In this document: one piece after another, positions 50,635 through 58,366 of the stretch | How positions within the stretch are numbered: the stretch's first letter is position 1 | Layout: each line of letters opens with the position of its first letter | From: Candidatus Woesearchaeota archaeon | Lineage (GTDB): Archaea > Nanobdellota > Nanobdellia > SCGC-AAA011-G17 > CAYUTI01 | Direction: 5' to 3' | DNA: 64,000 nucleotides | Assembly (NCBI GenBank): GCA_964447685.1 | Contig: CAYUTI010000001.1 | Coordinates: forward strand, 267,064-331,063 | Position numbers and translations under genes: made by a program | The notes under the pieces: generated by a model | The model's input: only the letters and a program-made list of their open reading frames with translations | Told to the model about the DNA's origin: nothing | Database searches by the model: none

Positions 50635-52152
50635 ATGTATACTGAAAAAGTTATGAAATATTTTAAGCATCCTAAGAATATGGGTGTTATTAAGAATGCT
50701 GATGCAGTTGGTCAGGTTGGAAATCCTACTTGTTTATTACCTGAAGAAATTATCCATAAAAATCCTGAAATTGTGCATATTAATAAAATTTCTAAAGATG
50801 ATAAAGTTTTAACTCATACTGGAGATTATAAAAAAGTTATTGCTATTTCTTGTAATCCTTATAAAGGAGATATTATTAGATTAAAAAATAAACTTGGAAA
50901 AATTTCCTTTACCCCAGAACATTTGGTTTATGCTATTAAAGTTCCCAAACATGATAAATTTTTAAGATCGAAGAATAAGAAAATGTTAGTGCCTGCTTGG
51001 TATCATGCAGATCAATTGGAGGTAGGAGATATTTCTTTATATCCTATCCATAAAAATGAAAAAGATATTGAATCTTTGAAGATTGATATACCCGAACTTG
51101 AATGGGATTATAGAAGTAAAGAAATCCCTGATGAAATCCCCGTTAATGATGATTTATTGAGATTGTTTGGTTATTTTTTATCTGAAGGAAATGTTCAAGA
51201 CAAACCATGTAAAACATATATCTCTTTTTCATTAAATATTGCGGAAACAGATATCGTTGAAGATATTAGAAAAATATGTCAAAATCTTTTTAATTTGTCA
51301 GTTAAAGTTAAAAATTTTCCTAAAAGGAATACAGTTATTGTTTATTTGTATAATGCAAGAATCGCAAGATTTTTTAAAAAAATTATGAGTAATGGGGCTA
51401 AAAATAAAAAAATTCCTGCTTTTGTAATGTATCTTCCAAAAGAAAAACAAAAATCATTGATTTTTGGACTTTGGAAAGGGGATGGTTATGTTAATCTTGA
51501 GAGGGATGGACCGAGAGCAGGTTATTCTACAATATCTTATCAACTTGCGCAACAATTAAAAATTTTGTTAATAAGACAAAAAATTTTACCTTCTATTTAT
51601 GAAGAGGATGAAAAAAACATTAGAGGTGTTAATCATAAAAAAAATTATAGGCTTCATGTTGGTCAAAGAGAATCTTTGATTAATCTTTGTAAAATTTTGA
51701 ATATTAATTATGAACCTAAAATTTATAAATCAATTAAATCTTGGTTTGATAATAATTTTCTTTATATCCCCATTACGAAAAAAGATTCTTTTTATTATGA
51801 AGGGAATGTACATAATTTAGAGGTTATTGATTCACATTCTTTTGTTTCAGGTGCTTTTTGTTTGCATAATTGTGGTGATGTAATGAAGATTTATTTAAAA
51901 ATTGGTAAGGATTCTAAAGGTAGAGAGGTGATTAAGGATTGTAAATTTGAAACCTTGGGATGTATTGCTGCAATCGCTACAAGTTCTATTACTACTGAAT
52001 TAGCCAAAGGGAAGACTCTTGATGAAGCTATGAAAATTGATAAGAAAAAAGTAGCTGATTCTTTAGGGGGGTTGCCTGCTGCTAAATTTCATTGTTCTAT
52101 TTTAGCTGTTGATGCTTTGAAGAAGGCTATTGAGAATTATCGGAAGAAATAG
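50635..52152 (+). CDS. iscU: FeS scaffold IscU interrupted by a 380-aa intein
   Basis: Exteins MYTEK..VGQVGNPT and CGDVMKIY..LGCIAAIA..KFHCSILAVDAL rejoin as the IscU GNP(T)CGDVM core. Confidence 0.85.
   Translation: MYTEKVMKYFKHPKNMGVIKNADAVGQVGNPTCLLPEEIIHKNPEIVHINKISKDDKVLTHTGDYKKVIAISCNPYKGDIIRLKNKLGKISFTPEHLVYAIKVPKHDKFLRSKNKKMLVPAWYHADQLEVGDISLYPIHKNEKDIESLKIDIPELEWDYRSKEIPDEIPVNDDLLRLFGYFLSEGNVQDKPCKTYISFSLNIAETDIVEDIRKICQNLFNLSVKVKNFPKRNTVIVYLYNARIARFFKKIMSNGAKNKKIPAFVMYLPKEKQKSLIFGLWKGDGYVNLERDGPRAGYSTISYQLAQQLKILLIRQKILPSIYEEDEKNIRGVNHKKNYRLHVGQRESLINLCKILNINYEPKIYKSIKSWFDNNFLYIPITKKDSFYYEGNVHNLEVIDSHSFVSGAFCLHNCGDVMKIYLKIGKDSKGREVIKDCKFETLGCIAAIATSSITTELAKGKTLDEAMKIDKKKVADSLGGLPAAKFHCSILAVDALKKAIENYRKK
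50731..51870 (+). mobile_element. LAGLIDADG homing-endonuclease intein in iscU
   Basis: Starts with Cys (CLLPEE..), ends ..CLHN followed by extein Cys; two LAGLIDADG blocks (LLRLFGYFLSEGN, LIFGLWKGDGYV). Confidence 0.8.
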
Positions 52153-54267: not shown

Positions 54268-55188
54268 TTACTTTAATTCTTTTAAAATATTACAAGCTTG
54301 ACAAATGTCTTGAGAAGAAGGTTCTTTACATTTTTTACAGGTTTTAATCTTAGAATCATTAGTTTTGTAATGGTTTTTAAGTAATGGAAGTATTTCTAGG
54401 AAAGAATTAATAACTGCATGTTTAGATCCTGGATGTTTTTGATTGTAATCATTTAATAAATTTCTTACATCATCTCTTAAAGCTTCTTCTGAATAGGGAC
54501 ATTCTGTGAATTCATGTAATAAGTTGTTTAAGAAAGCATAGGTCATTATTTCTTTTTCTGTTAGTAGATAGAAAGGTTTTATTCTTGGGATGAATTTTTT
54601 ATCTTTAATTACCCCTGTTAATGGTCCTAGTCTTGCTTGGGTTTCCATAGAGTTTCTGAATTGATTCATAAGAATAGATTGAGCTTCATCATCTAAGTTG
54701 TGGCCTGTTGCTATTTTATTTACTTTTAATTTTCTAGCATATTTATTTAGAAGGTATTTTCTTAAAACCCCGCAGATTGTACAAGGGTGTTGAGGAAGTT
54801 TTTTCTTTCTTGCTATTTTAATCATTTCATCTAGAGTTAAGCCAAATTCTTTTTTGAATGAAACTATAGTTAGATTTTTACTTAAAGTTTTAAGATGTTG
54901 AATGTTTAAGTCTCTGTAAGGTTTTATTCCTTCATCAATTACTATAATCTCTAATTCTAAATTTCTGGTATTTTCTGAGAGTTTACTTAAGAAAAATAGT
55001 AAAGCATTAGAATCTTTTCCGCCTGAGCAGGCTACAGCTATCCTATCTTTTTTATCTAAGAGATTGTAAGCTTTAATTGTTCTTTTAGCTTTTTTCTCGA
55101 AGTATCTTATGAAGCAAGCCTTACATAATTGTACTTCTGAATTTGGTAATCTAATTACTGGGGCTGTTTTACATAATTTACACGGCAT
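54268..55188 (-). CDS. ncsA: tRNA 2-thiolation PP-loop ATPase (NcsA/Ncs6/TtcA family)
   Basis: PP-loop ACSGGKDS; N- and C-terminal CxxC..CxxC zinc fingers (CKLCK..CKAC; CKKCK..CQAC). Confidence 0.7.
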   Translation of the reverse strand: MPCKLCKTAPVIRLPNSEVQLCKACFIRYFEKKAKRTIKAYNLLDKKDRIAVACSGGKDSNALLFFLSKLSENTRNLELEIIVIDEGIKPYRDLNIQHLKTLSKNLTIVSFKKEFGLTLDEMIKIARKKKLPQHPCTICGVLRKYLLNKYARKLKVNKIATGHNLDDEAQSILMNQFRNSMETQARLGPLTGVIKDKKFIPRIKPFYLLTEKEIMTYAFLNNLLHEFTECPYSEEALRDDVRNLLNDYNQKHPGSKHAVINSFLEILPLLKNHYKTNDSKIKTCKKCKEPSSQDICQACNILKELK

Positions 55189-55386
55189 TTATCCTCCGGA
55201 GATTACAGAGAGAAGTCTAATTTTATCTTTAGGTTGAAGTTTAGTTGCCTCTGTGATTAATTCATTGTTTCTTGTTATTATTACTGTTTCTGAGTTGATA
55301 GCTAACTGACTAAGTAAGTCTGGAATATCCTTTGCTTCAAGCTTTTTTGTTTGATTATCTCTTTCTATGAATACTTCTATCTGCAT
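55189..55386 (-). CDS. ubiquitin-like small archaeal modifier / sulfur carrier (ThiS/MoaD fold) with C-terminal Gly-Gly
   Basis: 65 aa ending ..LLSVISGG; sits immediately upstream of ncsA. Confidence 0.6.
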   Translation of the reverse strand: MQIEVFIERDNQTKKLEAKDIPDLLSQLAINSETVIITRNNELITEATKLQPKDKIRLLSVISGG

Positions 55387-55973: not shown

Positions 55974-56447
55974 CTATAATTCTGTTTCGTTTGGAGTTTC
56001 TTCTAAGATCTCTGGTTCTTCTTCAATAGGTTCTGTTTCTTCTTTGATCTCTTCTATCTCTTCAACAGTTTCTAATTTGTTCATTAAATAGAATACTTCT
56101 TCAAGGTCTACTGCTTGATTAAAAAAGTATTTTCCATCTTTTGTCATGTAAGCTGTTGTTTTTTGAGTTACATCCCTAGTGGTTACAGAAAGATATAATT
56201 CATATAAACCGTCTGTTTCAATTACTTTATCTACTGTTACACTTATATGTGCAGTATTTTCTTTTGTTAAACTTAAAAAGTCTGTAGCCCTTTGTTTTGC
56301 TTCTTCTGGAGTAAGGTTTCTTTTGCTTAAATCAATACTTCCGTTTGAATAGAATGAGAAAACTAGTAATATTAATAGGATTAGACTGATTATTTTCCAA
56401 GTATAGGTTTTAGCTAGTCTTTTTCTTTTTAATTTACTTATCTCCAT
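55974..56447 (-). CDS. membrane-anchored protein with acidic C-terminal tail
   Basis: N-terminal TM; EEIEEIKEETEPIEEEPE tail. Confidence 0.45.
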   Translation of the reverse strand: MEISKLKRKRLAKTYTWKIISLILLILLVFSFYSNGSIDLSKRNLTPEEAKQRATDFLSLTKENTAHISVTVDKVIETDGLYELYLSVTTRDVTQKTTAYMTKDGKYFFNQAVDLEEVFYLMNKLETVEEIEEIKEETEPIEEEPEILEETPNETEL

Positions 56448-56556
56448 AAGTACTTTTGATTAATCTGTTCTTTTTAAGTGTTTTTAATGAGTAATAGTTA
56501 TTTTAGAATGTGTATATTATTGTTGTTAAATACTTAAATAAATTAGTGAGTGATTA

Positions 56557-57273
56557 TTGGATATGAAAACATTCGATATTGTTTTGTTATTTTTACTTGT
56601 TTTTCTAGCTGGAATTATCGTAGGTTTAGAGTTTATTCCTAGGGGGAACGTTCAGGAGAATGTTATTCTAAGCGATATCAATGAAAAAGTAAGTGTTTAT
56701 TCCCCTGCTTTATCTGGAGAAGAGGGAGTAATTGTTGAAATTGTGGTATATGTTAAGGAGGGTTCTGGTAAGATTCTTGTTGATGTTGACGATGTTTTAT
56801 CTGATCTTTATATTCAAGAGAGTGCTCGTTTAGCTGCTAAGGCTGCTTCGCATTTAGCTAATATTAGTCTTGATAATAAGGATATAATCTATTCGGTTAA
56901 GGCAAAGACTGGTGTTATTGAGGGACCTAGTGCTGGTGCAACTATGGCTCTTGGAACTTATGCTTTATTGACTGGGAAACAGATTAAAAGGGATGTTATG
57001 ATGACTGGAGCGGTTTTAGAGAATGGAAAGATTACAGCTGTTGGGGGTGTTGTTGAAAAGGCACAAGCTGCTAAAGATTTTAATGTTACTAAGTTTATAG
57101 TTGCTAAGGGTTTAGGTTATGAAGTTGAGAAATATAATAGAGTTGAAGCCTGTAAAGGAATAGTTTGTAGAATTGTTTATAGGCCTGTAATTAAGAGTTT
57201 TGGGGATGATATTGGTATACAAGTAATAGAGGTAGATACCTTGGAAGAAGCTGCTGAGGTGTATTTGGAATGA
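56557..57273 (+). CDS. membrane-anchored Lon-like (S16) protease domain protein
   Basis: N-terminal TM; catalytic-Ser block EGPSAGATMALG and Lys block GGVVEKAQAAK match the Lon C-terminal Ser-Lys dyad. Confidence 0.7.
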   Translation: MDMKTFDIVLLFLLVFLAGIIVGLEFIPRGNVQENVILSDINEKVSVYSPALSGEEGVIVEIVVYVKEGSGKILVDVDDVLSDLYIQESARLAAKAASHLANISLDNKDIIYSVKAKTGVIEGPSAGATMALGTYALLTGKQIKRDVMMTGAVLENGKITAVGGVVEKAQAAKDFNVTKFIVAKGLGYEVEKYNRVEACKGIVCRIVYRPVIKSFGDDIGIQVIEVDTLEEAAEVYLE

Positions 57274-57800
57274 GAAAAAAACATAAGAGGATCTTTGTTA
57301 TATTGTGTTTTGTATTATTATTAAGTTTGTTGATTAATGCTTATCTTGTTTATAGATATGTTGAAATTCCTGAACCGGTGGAAGAGATTTCTTTGGAAGA
57401 TGTGGACCTGCTTGGTTTGGTTAAAGTTTCTTATAATGTGAGTGATGATGGTTTGATTCGTCTTGTTCATGATTGTGAGGAATTAACTGCACAAACTAGT
57501 GAAGTGCAGGCTATTTCTATTAATGAAGGAATACAGAAAACTCATTTAAATAGACCTTGGTCACATGATTTGATATCTGATATCTTGAATTATTATGAAA
57601 TAAATGTATTGTTTGTTAGAATTACTGAAATAAATTATGGTTGGTATTATTCTGATTTGGTTCTTGAGAAAGATGGTTTTGTGTTGAGTGTTGATTGTAA
57701 GCCAAGTGATGCTATGGCTGTTGCTGTTAGATTTAATGCTCCAATCTATGTTAGTTCTGAATTATTTGAGAAGTATGGTGTAAATATCTGTGATGATTAA
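57270..57800 (+). CDS. membrane-anchored DUF151 (bifunctional-nuclease domain) protein
   Basis: N-terminal TM; NRPWSHDLISDIL matches the DUF151 RPxTHDL motif; ATGA overlap with the Lon-like gene. Confidence 0.55.
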   Translation: MRKKHKRIFVILCFVLLLSLLINAYLVYRYVEIPEPVEEISLEDVDLLGLVKVSYNVSDDGLIRLVHDCEELTAQTSEVQAISINEGIQKTHLNRPWSHDLISDILNYYEINVLFVRITEINYGWYYSDLVLEKDGFVLSVDCKPSDAMAVAVRFNAPIYVSSELFEKYGVNICDD

Positions 57801-58366
57801 TAGTTCTGCCATAACCAAGGTTTATTTTTTCTAGCTTCTAAGAAATATCTTTTGAAATTTTTACCTAATAACTCAGCATCTCTCCCAGGGTCATAACTTG
57901 GGTAGATATCTTCTCTAAACCCTTCGTCTTGGATTCTTGCTCTAAAAATATTTGTTAAATCTTCGTCAACTAAAACATCAATTCCTCTTTGGTGTGCTCT
58001 CTCTGCTAATTTTTCTACACAATCCCATATATGAAAACCTGCAACTCTTAGATGGTCTATATCTCCAAGTTGATCTAATATAAAATCTTGGTTTGGATAG
58101 GGATATTCCCCGTTAACTTGAGTAGTGTGTTCATTAAAACTTAATCCAACTCTTATTATTCTATCTTTTTTATATATTCTAATCATATCAGAAATTGAAT
58201 GGTCATCAAAAAGTGCGAAGTTGACTTGAAAACCCTTTTTCCTATATCTTAGATCTATACACCTATTTAATTTTCCTTTGTATTCTTCTTTAAATTTTTT
58301 TGATCTATGTTTTAAATCAAAATCAAAGTATTCAGGTATTGGGTATAAATAAATCAATTGGTCCAT
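57797..58366 (-). CDS. isochorismatase-like cysteine hydrolase (tentative)
   Basis: RVAGFHIWDCVEKLAERAHQRGIDVLVDED resembles the isochorismatase catalytic-Cys block. Confidence 0.4.
   Translation of the reverse strand: MDQLIYLYPIPEYFDFDLKHRSKKFKEEYKGKLNRCIDLRYRKKGFQVNFALFDDHSISDMIRIYKKDRIIRVGLSFNEHTTQVNGEYPYPNQDFILDQLGDIDHLRVAGFHIWDCVEKLAERAHQRGIDVLVDEDLTNIFRARIQDEGFREDIYPSYDPGRDAELLGKNFKRYFLEARKNKPWLWQNY

What the first reader, a model, noticed from the sequence alone, without database searches (positions are those of the whole stretch)
56557..58366. Membrane-anchored Lon-like protease coupled to a membrane-anchored DUF151 nuclease-domain protein
Two genes with an ATGA overlap each begin with a single TM helix. 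The first carries the Lon S16 Ser-Lys proteolytic core (GPSAG..GGVVEK) with no ATPase domain. The second carries the bifunctional-nuclease RPxTHDL motif (NRPWSHDLISDIL). A convergent isochorismatase-like hydrolase follows. Lon-like S16 domains occur in BREX-type defence (BrxL), and nuclease plus protease pairs are typical of abortive-infection or defence modules. I do not recognise a membrane-tethered protease/nuclease pair of this kind as a described system.
Basis: partly seen in the sequence, partly recalled or inferred. Interest (0 to 1): 0.6.

Follow-up and report, generated by a model that had tools for sequence, protein, structure and literature searches.

The report
Surface-tethered Lon protease and BFN pair
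Two overlapping genes of a tiny (DPANN-type) archaeon encode a Lon-type protease without its ATPase motor and a DUF151/BFN "nuclease-fold" protein. Both appear anchored on the outside of the cell membrane, and the pairing is conserved in many related archaea, has not been described, and shows no sign of being an anti-virus defence system.

Summary
Gene A (56563-57273, +) has an N-terminal TM helix and a Lon S16 Ser-Lys domain, with no ATPase and no PDZ. Gene B (57270-57800, +) has a TM helix and a BFN/DUF151 domain. The two overlap by ATGA.

Both calls pass Pfam thresholds. The AlphaFold models match E. coli Lon P-domain and TM0160.

Topology is inferred to be N-in/C-out. K/R residues cluster before the TM helix, and each ectodomain carries a family-specific conserved Cys pair.

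Among 80 species-level loci with a TM-Lon_C homologue, all from DPANN archaea, 32 have a TM-BFN gene directly adjacent on the same strand. It occurs in both gene orders and in different synteny contexts, usually overlapping. A sister clade (28 loci) carries a small M50/site-2-protease-like gene instead. None of 69 soluble BFN genes neighbours Lon.

Neighbouring genes are housekeeping. PADLOC gives no defence membership, so the defence reading is not supported. The "isochorismatase" call fails (below cutoff) and that ORF is not conserved with the pair.

The nuclease label on BFN is contested in the literature. Most likely this is a cell-surface protease plus partner module, resembling YlbL-YneA. 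Nutrient scavenging is the main rival. It is a new variant of a known kind, of moderate interest.

The parts
56533..56544 (+). AT-rich TATA-like element (CTTAAATAAATT) about 24 nt upstream of the ATG; possible archaeal promoter of a leaderless or near-leaderless operon transcript
   Evidence: Read directly from the sequence. This is inference only; the promoter tool does not cover archaeal promoters.
56563..57273 (+). Gene A: membrane-anchored, ATPase-less Lon-type (S16) Ser-Lys protease, 236 aa
   Evidence: Pfam Lon_C above cutoff. Identical public protein P0001. AlphaFold mean pLDDT 81.7. Foldseek TM-score 0.77 (normalised to the target) to the E. coli Lon proteolytic domain 3WU6/1RR9, E 1.6e-14.
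56578..56628 (+). Gene A N-terminal hydrophobic signal-anchor (residues 6-22; AlphaFold helix 3-23)
   Evidence: Across the family, 75 of 81 homologues have a TM segment, and K+R is richer before it than after it (2.23 against 1.43).
56923..56937 (+). GPSAG motif containing the catalytic Ser123
   Evidence: IEGPSAGA is invariant in alignment A1 and present in nearly all of the 80 homologues. It aligns to the Lon catalytic Ser in PDB sequence alignments.
57043..57060 (+). GGVVEK motif containing the catalytic Lys166
   Evidence: E165 and K166 are invariant in A1. The motif aligns to GGVKEK of MtaLonA.
57151..57168 (+). Conserved ectodomain Cys pair of gene A (C197, C202) in a beta-hairpin insertion
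   Evidence: Nearly all homologues have exactly two ectodomain Cys. 72 have C-x8-C spacing; the window has C-x4-C. The hairpin spans strands 186-198 and 201-212 in the model. A disulfide is inferred, not shown.
57270..57273 (+). ATGA start/stop overlap between gene A and gene B (translational coupling)
   Evidence: The same 4-nt overlap occurs in 11 of 15 LON>BFN loci.
57270..57800 (+). Gene B: membrane-anchored BFN/DUF151-domain protein, 176 aa
   Evidence: Pfam BFN_dom above cutoff. AlphaFold mean pLDDT 92. The only significant PDB fold match is TM0160 (1SJ5/1VJL), E 1.8e-11, TM-score 0.77. PDB sequence hit to TM0160 at E 2.4e-8.
57291..57353 (+). Gene B signal-anchor (residues 8-28), preceded by MRKKHKR
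   Evidence: K+R before against after the TM helix is 2.57 against 0.87; the N side is richer in 23 of 30 homologues and poorer in 1. This predicts N-in/C-out.
57552..57572 (+). RPWSHDL motif of the BFN domain (R95, P96, H99, D100 invariant)
57699..57731 (+). KPSDAMAVAVR motif of the BFN domain. P145, D147 and R154 are invariant in A2 (20 TM-BFN); S146 is nearly invariant there and invariant in A4, where P145 and R154 are nearly invariant. D142 lies just upstream.
57474..57476 (+). Gene B Cys69, first of the family-specific Cys pair
   Evidence: Invariant in 20 of 20 aligned TM-BFN proteins. Absent as a pattern from the 69 soluble BFN proteins.
57789..57791 (+). Gene B Cys174, near-C-terminal partner of Cys69
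   Evidence: Invariant. The Cys-Cys spacing is about 105 residues in 26 of 28 proteins. All 11 TM-BFN proteins from metagenomes have it, and none of the 69 soluble ones do.

Best explanation
The two genes form a conserved, translationally coupled operon of DPANN archaea. It encodes two single-pass, N-in/C-out membrane proteins whose globular domains sit on the outer face of the cytoplasmic membrane.

Gene A is an ATP-independent Lon-type Ser-Lys peptidase. It has the same catalytic domain and the same membrane tether as the bacterial ecto-proteases YlbL and SepM, but no PDZ domain.

Gene B is a BFN/DUF151 ectodomain that keeps every conserved residue of the family's dimer-cleft site.

I propose that the two act as a dedicated pair at the cell surface. 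The protease would process, shed or turn over the BFN protein, or use it as a cofactor. This resembles YlbL acting on the type-II membrane protein YneA.

Shown: the domain identities, the folds, the catalytic residues, and the conserved adjacency in both gene orders.
Inferred: the outside topology, the disulfides, physical interaction, and the direction of action.
For: Domain and fold identity:
-.

Extracytoplasmic topology:
- N-terminal signal anchors with a positive-inside bias.
- An invariant Cys pair in each ectodomain. In the BFN family it is absent from all 69 soluble BFN homologues sampled; no equivalent comparison with cytoplasmic Lon was run.
- One Lon_C homologue (L087) has a cleavable-looking signal peptide instead of an anchor.

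Functional coupling:
- 32 of 80 species loci have TM-BFN immediately next to TM-Lon_C on the same strand. 17 are BFN>LON and 15 are LON>BFN.
- 20 of those 32 overlap.
- The pair sits in different synteny contexts: AlaX-BFN-LON, and MTAP-LON-BFN-TatD.
- From the BFN side, 6 of 15 TM-BFN loci have Lon adjacent, against 0 of 69 soluble BFN loci.

Links to membrane proteolysis:
- In a sister clade the partner slot is occupied by an M50 site-2-protease-like gene (28 loci).
- BFN's other domain partners are PDZ, in secreted bacterial proteins, and UVR.
- Plant UVR-DUF151 proteins are trapped by the Clp unfoldase CLPC1 (PMC8889267).
- Precedent: YlbL is an extracellular, ATPase-less Lon-domain protease that acts on a type-II single-pass protein (PMC6051672).
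Against: - No direct evidence of interaction or cleavage.
- The pairing is not obligatory. 48 of 80 Lon_C loci lack BFN within 4 kb. 9 of 15 TM-BFN loci lack Lon; several of these lie next to RpoL.
- The cytoplasmic tail of BFN is only 3-12 residues, so a signalling role through regulated intramembrane proteolysis is unlikely.
- No Lon_C-BFN fusion protein was seen among the 150 best family representatives.
- Purified YlbL without its TM helix was inactive in vitro, so the precedent itself is mechanistically incomplete.
- Topology rests on sequence rules, not experiment.
Confidence: 0.45

Rival explanations
1. Independent surface hydrolases for nutrient scavenging. The BFN ectodomain would be a genuine non-specific DNase/RNase and the Lon_C domain a general ecto-peptidase. 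They would be co-expressed because both feed an auxotrophic DPANN cell with nucleotides and peptides, without acting on each other.
For: - Plant BFN proteins AtBBD1/2 and OmBBD degrade DNA and RNA in vitro as MBP fusions (PMC7249048).
- All conserved cleft residues are retained.
- In the LON>BFN clade the pair sits between MTAP/PNP and TatD. In L005 the TM-Lon_C gene (with no BFN in the locus) lies next to an adenine deaminase, PNP and TatD.
- A TM-anchored SNase lies two genes away in L012, L014, L173 and L174.
- A large S8 subtilase with Ig-like domains follows the pair in five loci.
- DPANN archaea generally depend on salvage (general knowledge; the papers listed were not read).
Against: - Nuclease activity of DUF151 is contested. 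Cor/Rv1829 had none, and its authors suggested the OmBBD activity might come from co-purifying UvrC (PMC3870250).
- MTAP and TatD are cytoplasmic housekeeping enzymes, and TatD stays next to Lon even where BFN is absent (L031, L034, L044, L057). That synteny may therefore be inherited rather than functional.
- Co-expression alone does not explain adjacency being kept in both orders with start/stop overlaps, or replacement of BFN by an M50 protease in the sister clade.
Confidence: 0.3
2. An anti-virus defence or abortive-infection module. A protease-nuclease pair that is activated on infection, related to BrxL or CRISPR-Lon systems.
For: - The S16 domain is shared with BrxL and CRISPR-Lon.
- PADLOC gives weak partial hits to CARF-Lon, CRISPR-Lon and BrxL models, 13-22 bits, E 2e-5 to 5e-3.
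Against: - The hits cover only the shared catalytic core. There is no CARF, SAVED, AAA+ or BREX partner.
- No defence genes occur in the window neighbourhood or in any of the roughly 90 related loci; the contexts are housekeeping.
- Both domains are predicted to be outside the cell.
- The pair is vertically conserved, with partner type tracking the Lon_C tree. It is not patchy like a defence island.
Confidence: 0.03
3. The adjacency has no direct functional link. The two envelope genes would simply be kept together by inherited synteny in small, compact genomes.
For: - DPANN genomes are compact and overlapping genes are common.
- Both genes also occur separately.
- Partner type follows phylogeny.
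Against: - The adjacency survives an inversion of gene order and complete turnover of the flanking genes.
- The window itself has yet another context.
- The association is specific to the TM-plus-Cys-pair subfamily of BFN: 0 of 69 soluble BFN loci have Lon.
Confidence: 0.12

Closest known systems
YlbL (Bacillus subtilis) and SepM (Streptococcus mutans): membrane-anchored, ATP-independent Lon_C proteases
   Same: - N-terminal TM anchor and an extracytoplasmic Lon S16 Ser-Lys domain, with no AAA+ module.
- The YlbL substrate YneA is a type-II single-pass membrane protein, which is the topology predicted here for the BFN partner (PMC6051672).
   Different: - No PDZ domain; the protein is only 236 aa.
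- The NCBIfam SepM_fam_S16 model scores 27.6 bits against a cutoff of 200.
- The family here is archaeal (DPANN), carries a Cys-stapled hairpin insertion, and has a dedicated BFN or M50 neighbour.
BFN / DUF151 family (TM0160, Cor/Rv1829, plant BBD1/2/OmBBD)
   Same: - Same domain (Pfam above cutoff) and same fold (TM-score 0.77 to 1SJ5).
- The same invariant R-P-x-x-H-D and D-x-[RK]-P-S-D residues.
   Different: - The characterised members are soluble and intracellular, often with a C-terminal UVR domain.
- This subfamily has an N-terminal signal anchor, an invariant Cys69/Cys174 pair and no UVR.
- The position equivalent to the proposed triad Thr57 of TM0160 is variable here (T, S, I, A, P or V).
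LonB (archaeal membrane-bound ATP-dependent Lon) and LonC (MtaLonC)
   Same: The Lon proteolytic domain and membrane association (LonB). ATP-independent proteolysis (LonC; PMC3391209, listed).
   Different: - No AAA+ or AAA-like module at all.
- The NCBIfam LonB model TIGR00764 scores 31 bits against a cutoff of 516.6.
- The catalytic domain is predicted to be outside the cell, not cytoplasmic.
Site-1/site-2 protease cascades (DegS-RseP; SpoIVB/CtpB-SpoIVFB)
   Same: An extracytoplasmic Ser protease encoded next to an M50 intramembrane metalloprotease is found in the sister clade of this family (28 loci). Type-II membrane proteins are the usual substrates.
   Different: - The window has no M50 gene within its 64 kb.
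- The BFN protein has almost no cytoplasmic domain that could be released as a signal.
- No regulator is encoded nearby.
BrxL (BREX) and CRISPR-Lon/CARF-Lon defence proteases
   Same: They share the S16 catalytic domain.
   Different: Only weak partial profile hits. There are no sensor domains, no ATPase, no defence neighbours, and the predicted location is extracytoplasmic.

Membership tests
Lon S16 proteolytic domain (PF05362) | Profile match above the curated threshold | tested here: met
   54.7 bits against a cutoff of 21.1, E 1.3e-14.
Lon S16 proteolytic domain (PF05362) | Ser-Lys catalytic dyad in GPSAG ... GG-x-x-EK | tested here: met
   S123 and K166. Both are invariant in A1 and align to the dyad of solved Lon structures.
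Lon S16 proteolytic domain (PF05362) | Lon P-domain fold | tested here: met
   Foldseek E 1.6e-14, TM-score (normalised to the target) 0.77 to 3WU6/1RR9.
LonA/LonB ATP-dependent proteases | AAA+ ATPase module in the same polypeptide | tested here: not met
   The protein is 236 aa, made of a TM helix, a linker and the P-domain. There is no AAA+ Pfam hit. The TIGR00763, TIGR00764 and TIGR02902 models score 42, 31 and 46 bits against cutoffs of 608, 517 and 723.
YlbL/SepM-type PDZ-Lon_C ecto-proteases | N-terminal membrane anchor with an extracytoplasmic Lon_C domain | tested here: met
   The TM helix is present and the positive-inside bias predicts the domain outside. This is a prediction, not an experiment.
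YlbL/SepM-type PDZ-Lon_C ecto-proteases | PDZ domain between the anchor and Lon_C; family HMM above cutoff | tested here: not met
   No PDZ hit. NF041438 scores 27.6 bits against a cutoff of 200.
BFN / DUF151 (PF02577) | Profile match above the curated threshold | tested here: met
   80.5 bits against a cutoff of 27, E 1.1e-22.
BFN / DUF151 (PF02577) | TM0160-type fold and conserved cleft residues (RPxxHD, DxRPSD) | tested here: met
   Foldseek E 1.8e-11 to 1SJ5. R95, P96, H99, D100, D142, S146 and D147 are invariant across 39 TM and soluble homologues.
BFN / DUF151 (PF02577) | DNase/RNase activity | not testable with these tools
   The literature is split. AtBBD1/2 were active (PMC7249048); Cor/Rv1829 was inactive (PMC3870250).
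BREX BrxL / CRISPR-Lon defence proteases | Full-length match to the defence-family model, with cognate system genes nearby | tested here: not met
   PADLOC gives partial hits of 13-22 bits only. There are no BREX or CRISPR genes in the window neighbourhood or in related loci.
S1P/S2P regulated intramembrane proteolysis module | M50 intramembrane protease encoded with the ecto-protease | tested here: not met
   No M50 homologue in the 64-kb window. One is present next to Lon_C in 28 sister-clade loci.
Isochorismatase (PF00857), for ORF 57797-58366 | Profile match above the curated threshold | tested here: not met
   16.1 bits against a cutoff of 27, E 0.012, covering 49 residues only. No NCBIfam or PDB sequence hit.

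The most novel reading that the evidence does not exclude
BFN/DUF151 may not be primarily a nuclease. It may instead be a proteolysis-linked module. Its three recurrent partners are a Lon_C ecto-protease (a gene neighbour in DPANN), PDZ (fused in secreted bacterial proteins) and UVR (fused in cytoplasmic and plastid proteins that are trapped by ClpC1), and all three belong to protease systems. On this reading the DPANN Lon_C-BFN pair, together with the Lon_C-M50 pair of the sister clade, would be a minimal archaeal cell-surface proteolytic cascade. It would also give the first functional handle on a domain family that has been enigmatic for 20 years across bacteria, archaea and plants.
Probability: 0.2. 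Interest if true: 0.7.

Novelty: new variant of a known kind. Interest (0 to 1): 0.45.

Why it matters
DUF151/BFN is widespread in bacteria, archaea and plants, and the experimental reports on its activity conflict. A subfamily that faces outward, has a conserved Cys pair, and is linked by operon to an ATP-independent Lon-type protease gives a concrete and testable context for its function.

It also defines a large family of minimal ecto-Lon proteases: 852 representatives of 50%-identity clusters at E<=1e-30. Every one of the 80 best genome matches comes from a DPANN archaeon. These organisms' surface biology, including host contact, scavenging and envelope maintenance, is almost entirely unknown.

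It removes one false lead, since this is not a defence system.

Tried and rejected
- Defence membership: PADLOC gave only weak shared-domain hits. Rejected.
- Isochorismatase call for the convergent ORF: below threshold, with no PDB or NCBIfam hit. It recurs only in L007, the same organism. Rejected as part of the system.
- Rosetta-stone fusion of Lon_C and BFN: none among the 150 best representatives or the 57 BFN hits.
- M50, TatD, MTAP, EndoQ-like or SNase homologues in the window: none.
- Context of the bacterial PDZ-BFN genes: uninformative. They follow a tRNA methyltransferase and an M24 peptidase.
- The first metagenome scan with the 20-sequence BFN alignment failed because no stretch was conserved enough. 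It was repeated with 7 sequences.
- The Spraggon 2004 TM0160 paper could not be read. Its proposed Thr57/His58/Asp115 triad is cited second-hand from PMC7249048.
- The organism name could not be recovered, as the cluster look-up gave no accession.
Full report
**1. What is in the sequence**

The region holds two same-strand ORFs.

Gene A is listed from TTG 56557. The ATG at 56563 gives the 236-aa product that public gene calls use (P0001). A TATA-like CTTAAATAAATT lies about 24 nt upstream of that ATG. That spacing would fit a leaderless archaeal transcript; this is inference.

Gene B runs from 57270 to 57800. Its ATG overlaps the TGA of gene A (GGAATGAGAA).

A convergent ORF (57797-58366, minus strand) overlaps the end of gene B by 4 nt.

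The window is about 30% GC throughout. The surrounding genes are housekeeping:
- an intein-containing IscU;
- a TtuA-like tRNA thiolase with a ThiS-like carrier;
- ScpA;
- an AlkD-type DNA alkylation repair protein;
- HisRS, and tRNAs (the tRNAs are).

**2. Domain calls**

Gene A matches Pfam Lon_C at 54.7 bits, cutoff 21.1. It has no AAA+ or PDZ hit. All full-length Lon and SepM NCBIfam models score far below their cutoffs.
- GPSAG (Ser123) and GGVVEK (Lys166) align to the catalytic dyad of solved Lon proteases.
- The AlphaFold model has mean pLDDT 81.7. It shows an N-terminal helix at residues 3-23, a disordered linker at 25-40, and a domain that matches the E. coli Lon P-domain (Foldseek E 1.6e-14, TM-score 0.77).

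Gene B matches Pfam BFN_dom at 80.5 bits, cutoff 27, and TM0160 by sequence at E 2.4e-8.
- Its model has mean pLDDT 92 and shows a helix at residues 2-30 followed by the domain.
- The only significant PDB fold match is TM0160 (E 1.8e-11, TM-score 0.77).

The convergent ORF reaches only 16.1 bits for Isochorismatase, cutoff 27, and has no NCBIfam or PDB hit. That part of the finding is not supported.

**3. Topology (inferred)**

The related loci yielded 81 TM-Lon_C homologues and 32 adjacent TM-BFN genes, 30 of them with a scorable TM segment.
- A hydrophobic N-terminal segment is present in 75 of the 81 Lon_C proteins and 30 of the 32 BFN proteins.
- K+R residues are enriched before the segment relative to after it. 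For BFN the means are 2.57 against 0.87, with the N side richer in 23 proteins and poorer in 1. For Lon the means are 2.23 against 1.43, with 40 against 14.
- This predicts N-in/C-out, with the catalytic domains outside the cell.

Each ectodomain carries a family-specific Cys pair.
- Lon_C has exactly two Cys in nearly all members, spaced C-x8-C in 72 of them. The window has C-x4-C. They sit on a beta-hairpin insertion.
- BFN has Cys69 and a near-C-terminal Cys174, invariant in 20 of 20 aligned members.
- In a metagenome sample, all 11 TM-BFN proteins have the C-terminal Cys and none of the 69 soluble BFN proteins do.

Conserved Cys pairs restricted to the anchored subfamily are what one expects of extracytoplasmic disulfides. 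I could not measure distances because model coordinates are not exposed.

One Lon_C homologue (L087) has a cleavable-looking signal peptide (…LAQA|QE) in place of the anchor.

**4. Is the pairing conserved?**

A GTDB-wide scan with a four-sequence Lon_C alignment returned 80 species loci. All are from DPANN-type archaea, labelled Aenigmatarchaeota, Woesearchaeota or Nanoarchaeota.

I called ORFs in these loci and built HMMs iteratively.
- 32 loci have a TM-BFN gene immediately adjacent on the same strand: 17 as BFN>LON and 15 as LON>BFN.
- 20 of the 32 overlap, and 11 of the 15 LON>BFN cases use the same ATGA overlap.
- The flanks differ between groups. BFN>LON loci usually have AlaX upstream. 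LON>BFN loci often lie between MTAP and TatD. The window has a third context.

On a neighbour-joining tree of Lon_C, partner type maps to clades.
- The BFN-linked forms occupy two large parts of the tree.
- A third, roughly monophyletic clade (28 loci) carries a roughly 190-aa Peptidase_M50 gene downstream instead. It has the HELAHK and NLLPxxPLDG motifs and a Pfam E-value as low as 6e-10.

From the BFN side:
- A metagenome scan gave 11 TM-BFN loci, 3 with Lon adjacent, and 69 soluble BFN loci, none with Lon.
- Three further TM-BFN look-ups all had Lon_C next door. The closest relative of the window's BFN (P0034) did not.
- TM-BFN genes without Lon often sit next to RpoL.

The association is therefore strong and specific to the anchored subfamily, but it is not obligatory.

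The Lon_C family is large. A full HMMER search found 852 representatives of 50%-identity clusters at E<=1e-30. Nearly all are 230-290 aa, and none of the 150 listed representatives has a length compatible with a Lon_C-BFN fusion, apart from one 577-aa protein with a C-terminal extension like that of L087.

**5. Defence?**

No evidence supports a defence role.
- PADLOC gives only 13-22-bit partial hits to the S16 core of CARF-Lon, CRISPR-Lon and BrxL.
- Neighbours in about 90 loci are housekeeping or envelope genes.
- The pair is inherited vertically.
- Both domains are predicted to be outside the cell.

**6. What does BFN do?**

The 'bifunctional nuclease' name comes from plant MBP fusions, OmBBD and AtBBD1/2 (PMC7249048). 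The DUF151-only protein Cor/Rv1829 had no DNase or RNase activity, and its authors suspected co-purifying UvrC in the plant work (PMC3870250).

The TM0160 structure paper proposed a Thr57/His58/Asp115 triad-like pocket across the dimer interface, cited second-hand. In the DPANN subfamily the His and Asp are invariant, but the Thr position varies among T, S, I, A, P and V.

Three Arabidopsis UVR-DUF151 proteins are strongly enriched in CLPC1 substrate/adaptor traps (PMC8889267).

My profile search also found bacterial BFN-PDZ fusions with signal-peptide or lipoprotein-like N-termini (P0035-P0048) and UVR-BFN proteins.

BFN therefore recurs with three proteolysis-associated elements: Lon_C as a neighbour, and PDZ and UVR as fused domains.

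**7. Mechanism**

Best-supported reading, confidence 0.45: a cell-surface module. An ATP-independent, membrane-tethered Lon-type protease would work with, or on, a co-translated membrane-tethered BFN ectoprotein. The nearest working analogue is YlbL. It is extracellular, lacks an ATPase, and acts on the type-II membrane protein YneA (PMC6051672). The replacement of BFN by an M50 protease in the sister clade also places this Lon_C family in membrane-protein proteolysis.

Main rival, confidence 0.30: two independent scavenging hydrolases.
- In favour: the MTAP/TatD synteny, adenine-deaminase/PNP genes beside the Lon_C gene in L005, nearby TM-SNase genes in four loci, and S8 subtilases in five loci.
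- Against: the doubt over BFN nuclease activity, and the fact that TatD stays next to Lon where BFN is absent.

Pure inherited synteny (0.12) and defence (0.03) are less likely.

**8. Comparison and novelty**

Gene A is a member of the Lon S16 domain family. It is not LonA, LonB, LonC or YlbL/SepM, because the AAA+ and PDZ features were tested and not met. Gene B is a member of BFN/DUF151, in a previously unremarked anchored subfamily with a conserved Cys pair.

I found no paper in the searched library that links DUF151 to a Lon-type protease as a gene pair.

I rate it a new variant of a known kind: membrane-anchored ATP-independent Lon-like proteases, here with a dedicated BFN or M50 partner. 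Interest is moderate, and mostly lies in the handle it gives on DUF151 function and on DPANN surface biology.

Noticed in passing
window 50635-52152 (+): An IscU/NifU_N scaffold gene is interrupted after GNPTC by a LAGLIDADG-type intein of about 370 aa. Pfam hits: NifU_N E 1.3e-37 in two stretches, LAGLIDADG_3 E 2e-14, and a weak Intein_splicing hit.
   Followed up: partly
window 54268-55386 (-): A TtuA/NcsA-like PP-loop tRNA thiolase lies directly downstream of a 65-aa ThiS-like sulfur-carrier gene that ends in GG. This is a compact tRNA 2-thiolation pair.
   Followed up: no
L018-L086 sister-clade loci, e.g. L026:4631-5197, L082:4739-5314: In 28 of 80 TM-Lon_C loci the gene downstream is a roughly 190-aa Peptidase_M50 (site-2-protease-like) membrane protein, often followed by a YdjM-like membrane protein and a gene I labelled EndoQ-like from its N-terminal sequence only (no Pfam hit). 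Some copies have a degenerate HExxH motif. This could be a minimal archaeal site-1/site-2 protease pair.
   Followed up: partly
P0035-P0048 (e.g. L168:5001-5801, L170:5001-5849): Bacterial proteins (candidate division KSB1 and others) of about 265-288 aa have a signal-peptide or lipoprotein-like N-terminus, a BFN domain and a C-terminal PDZ domain. This is a secreted BFN-PDZ architecture that I did not find described.
   Followed up: partly
L087:3926-5767; P0097 (577 aa): Lon_C homologues with a cleavable-looking signal peptide instead of a TM anchor, plus a C-terminal extension of about 350 aa with a weak DUF7081 hit.
   Followed up: no
L001:5001-6428 (= L002, L003, L049): Two tandem TM-Lon_C paralogues. 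The second has GVSSTA in place of GPSAGA, keeping the Ser and a QEK Lys. It may be a diverged or regulatory subunit.
   Followed up: no
L012:5997-6470, L014:6106-6588, L173:5730-6275, L174:5609-6085: A membrane-anchored staphylococcal-nuclease (SNase) gene lies two genes downstream of the BFN>LON pair in one subclade.
   Followed up: partly
L011, L013:4399-7487, L015, L052, L065: A large S8 subtilase with Ig-like domains (over 1000 aa, with a signal peptide) lies just downstream of the BFN>LON pair.
   Followed up: no
L089, L091, L092, L096 (TM-BFN loci): TM-BFN genes without a Lon neighbour sit convergently next to a 92-aa gene that I read by eye as RpoL (RNA polymerase subunit L)-like; no profile search was run on it. 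This is a different conserved context for the anchored BFN subfamily.
   Followed up: no
window 55974-56447 (-): Divergently transcribed 157-aa protein with an N-terminal TM segment and a very acidic, E-rich C-terminus. It has no family hit and is not conserved next to the pair in other loci.
   Followed up: partly
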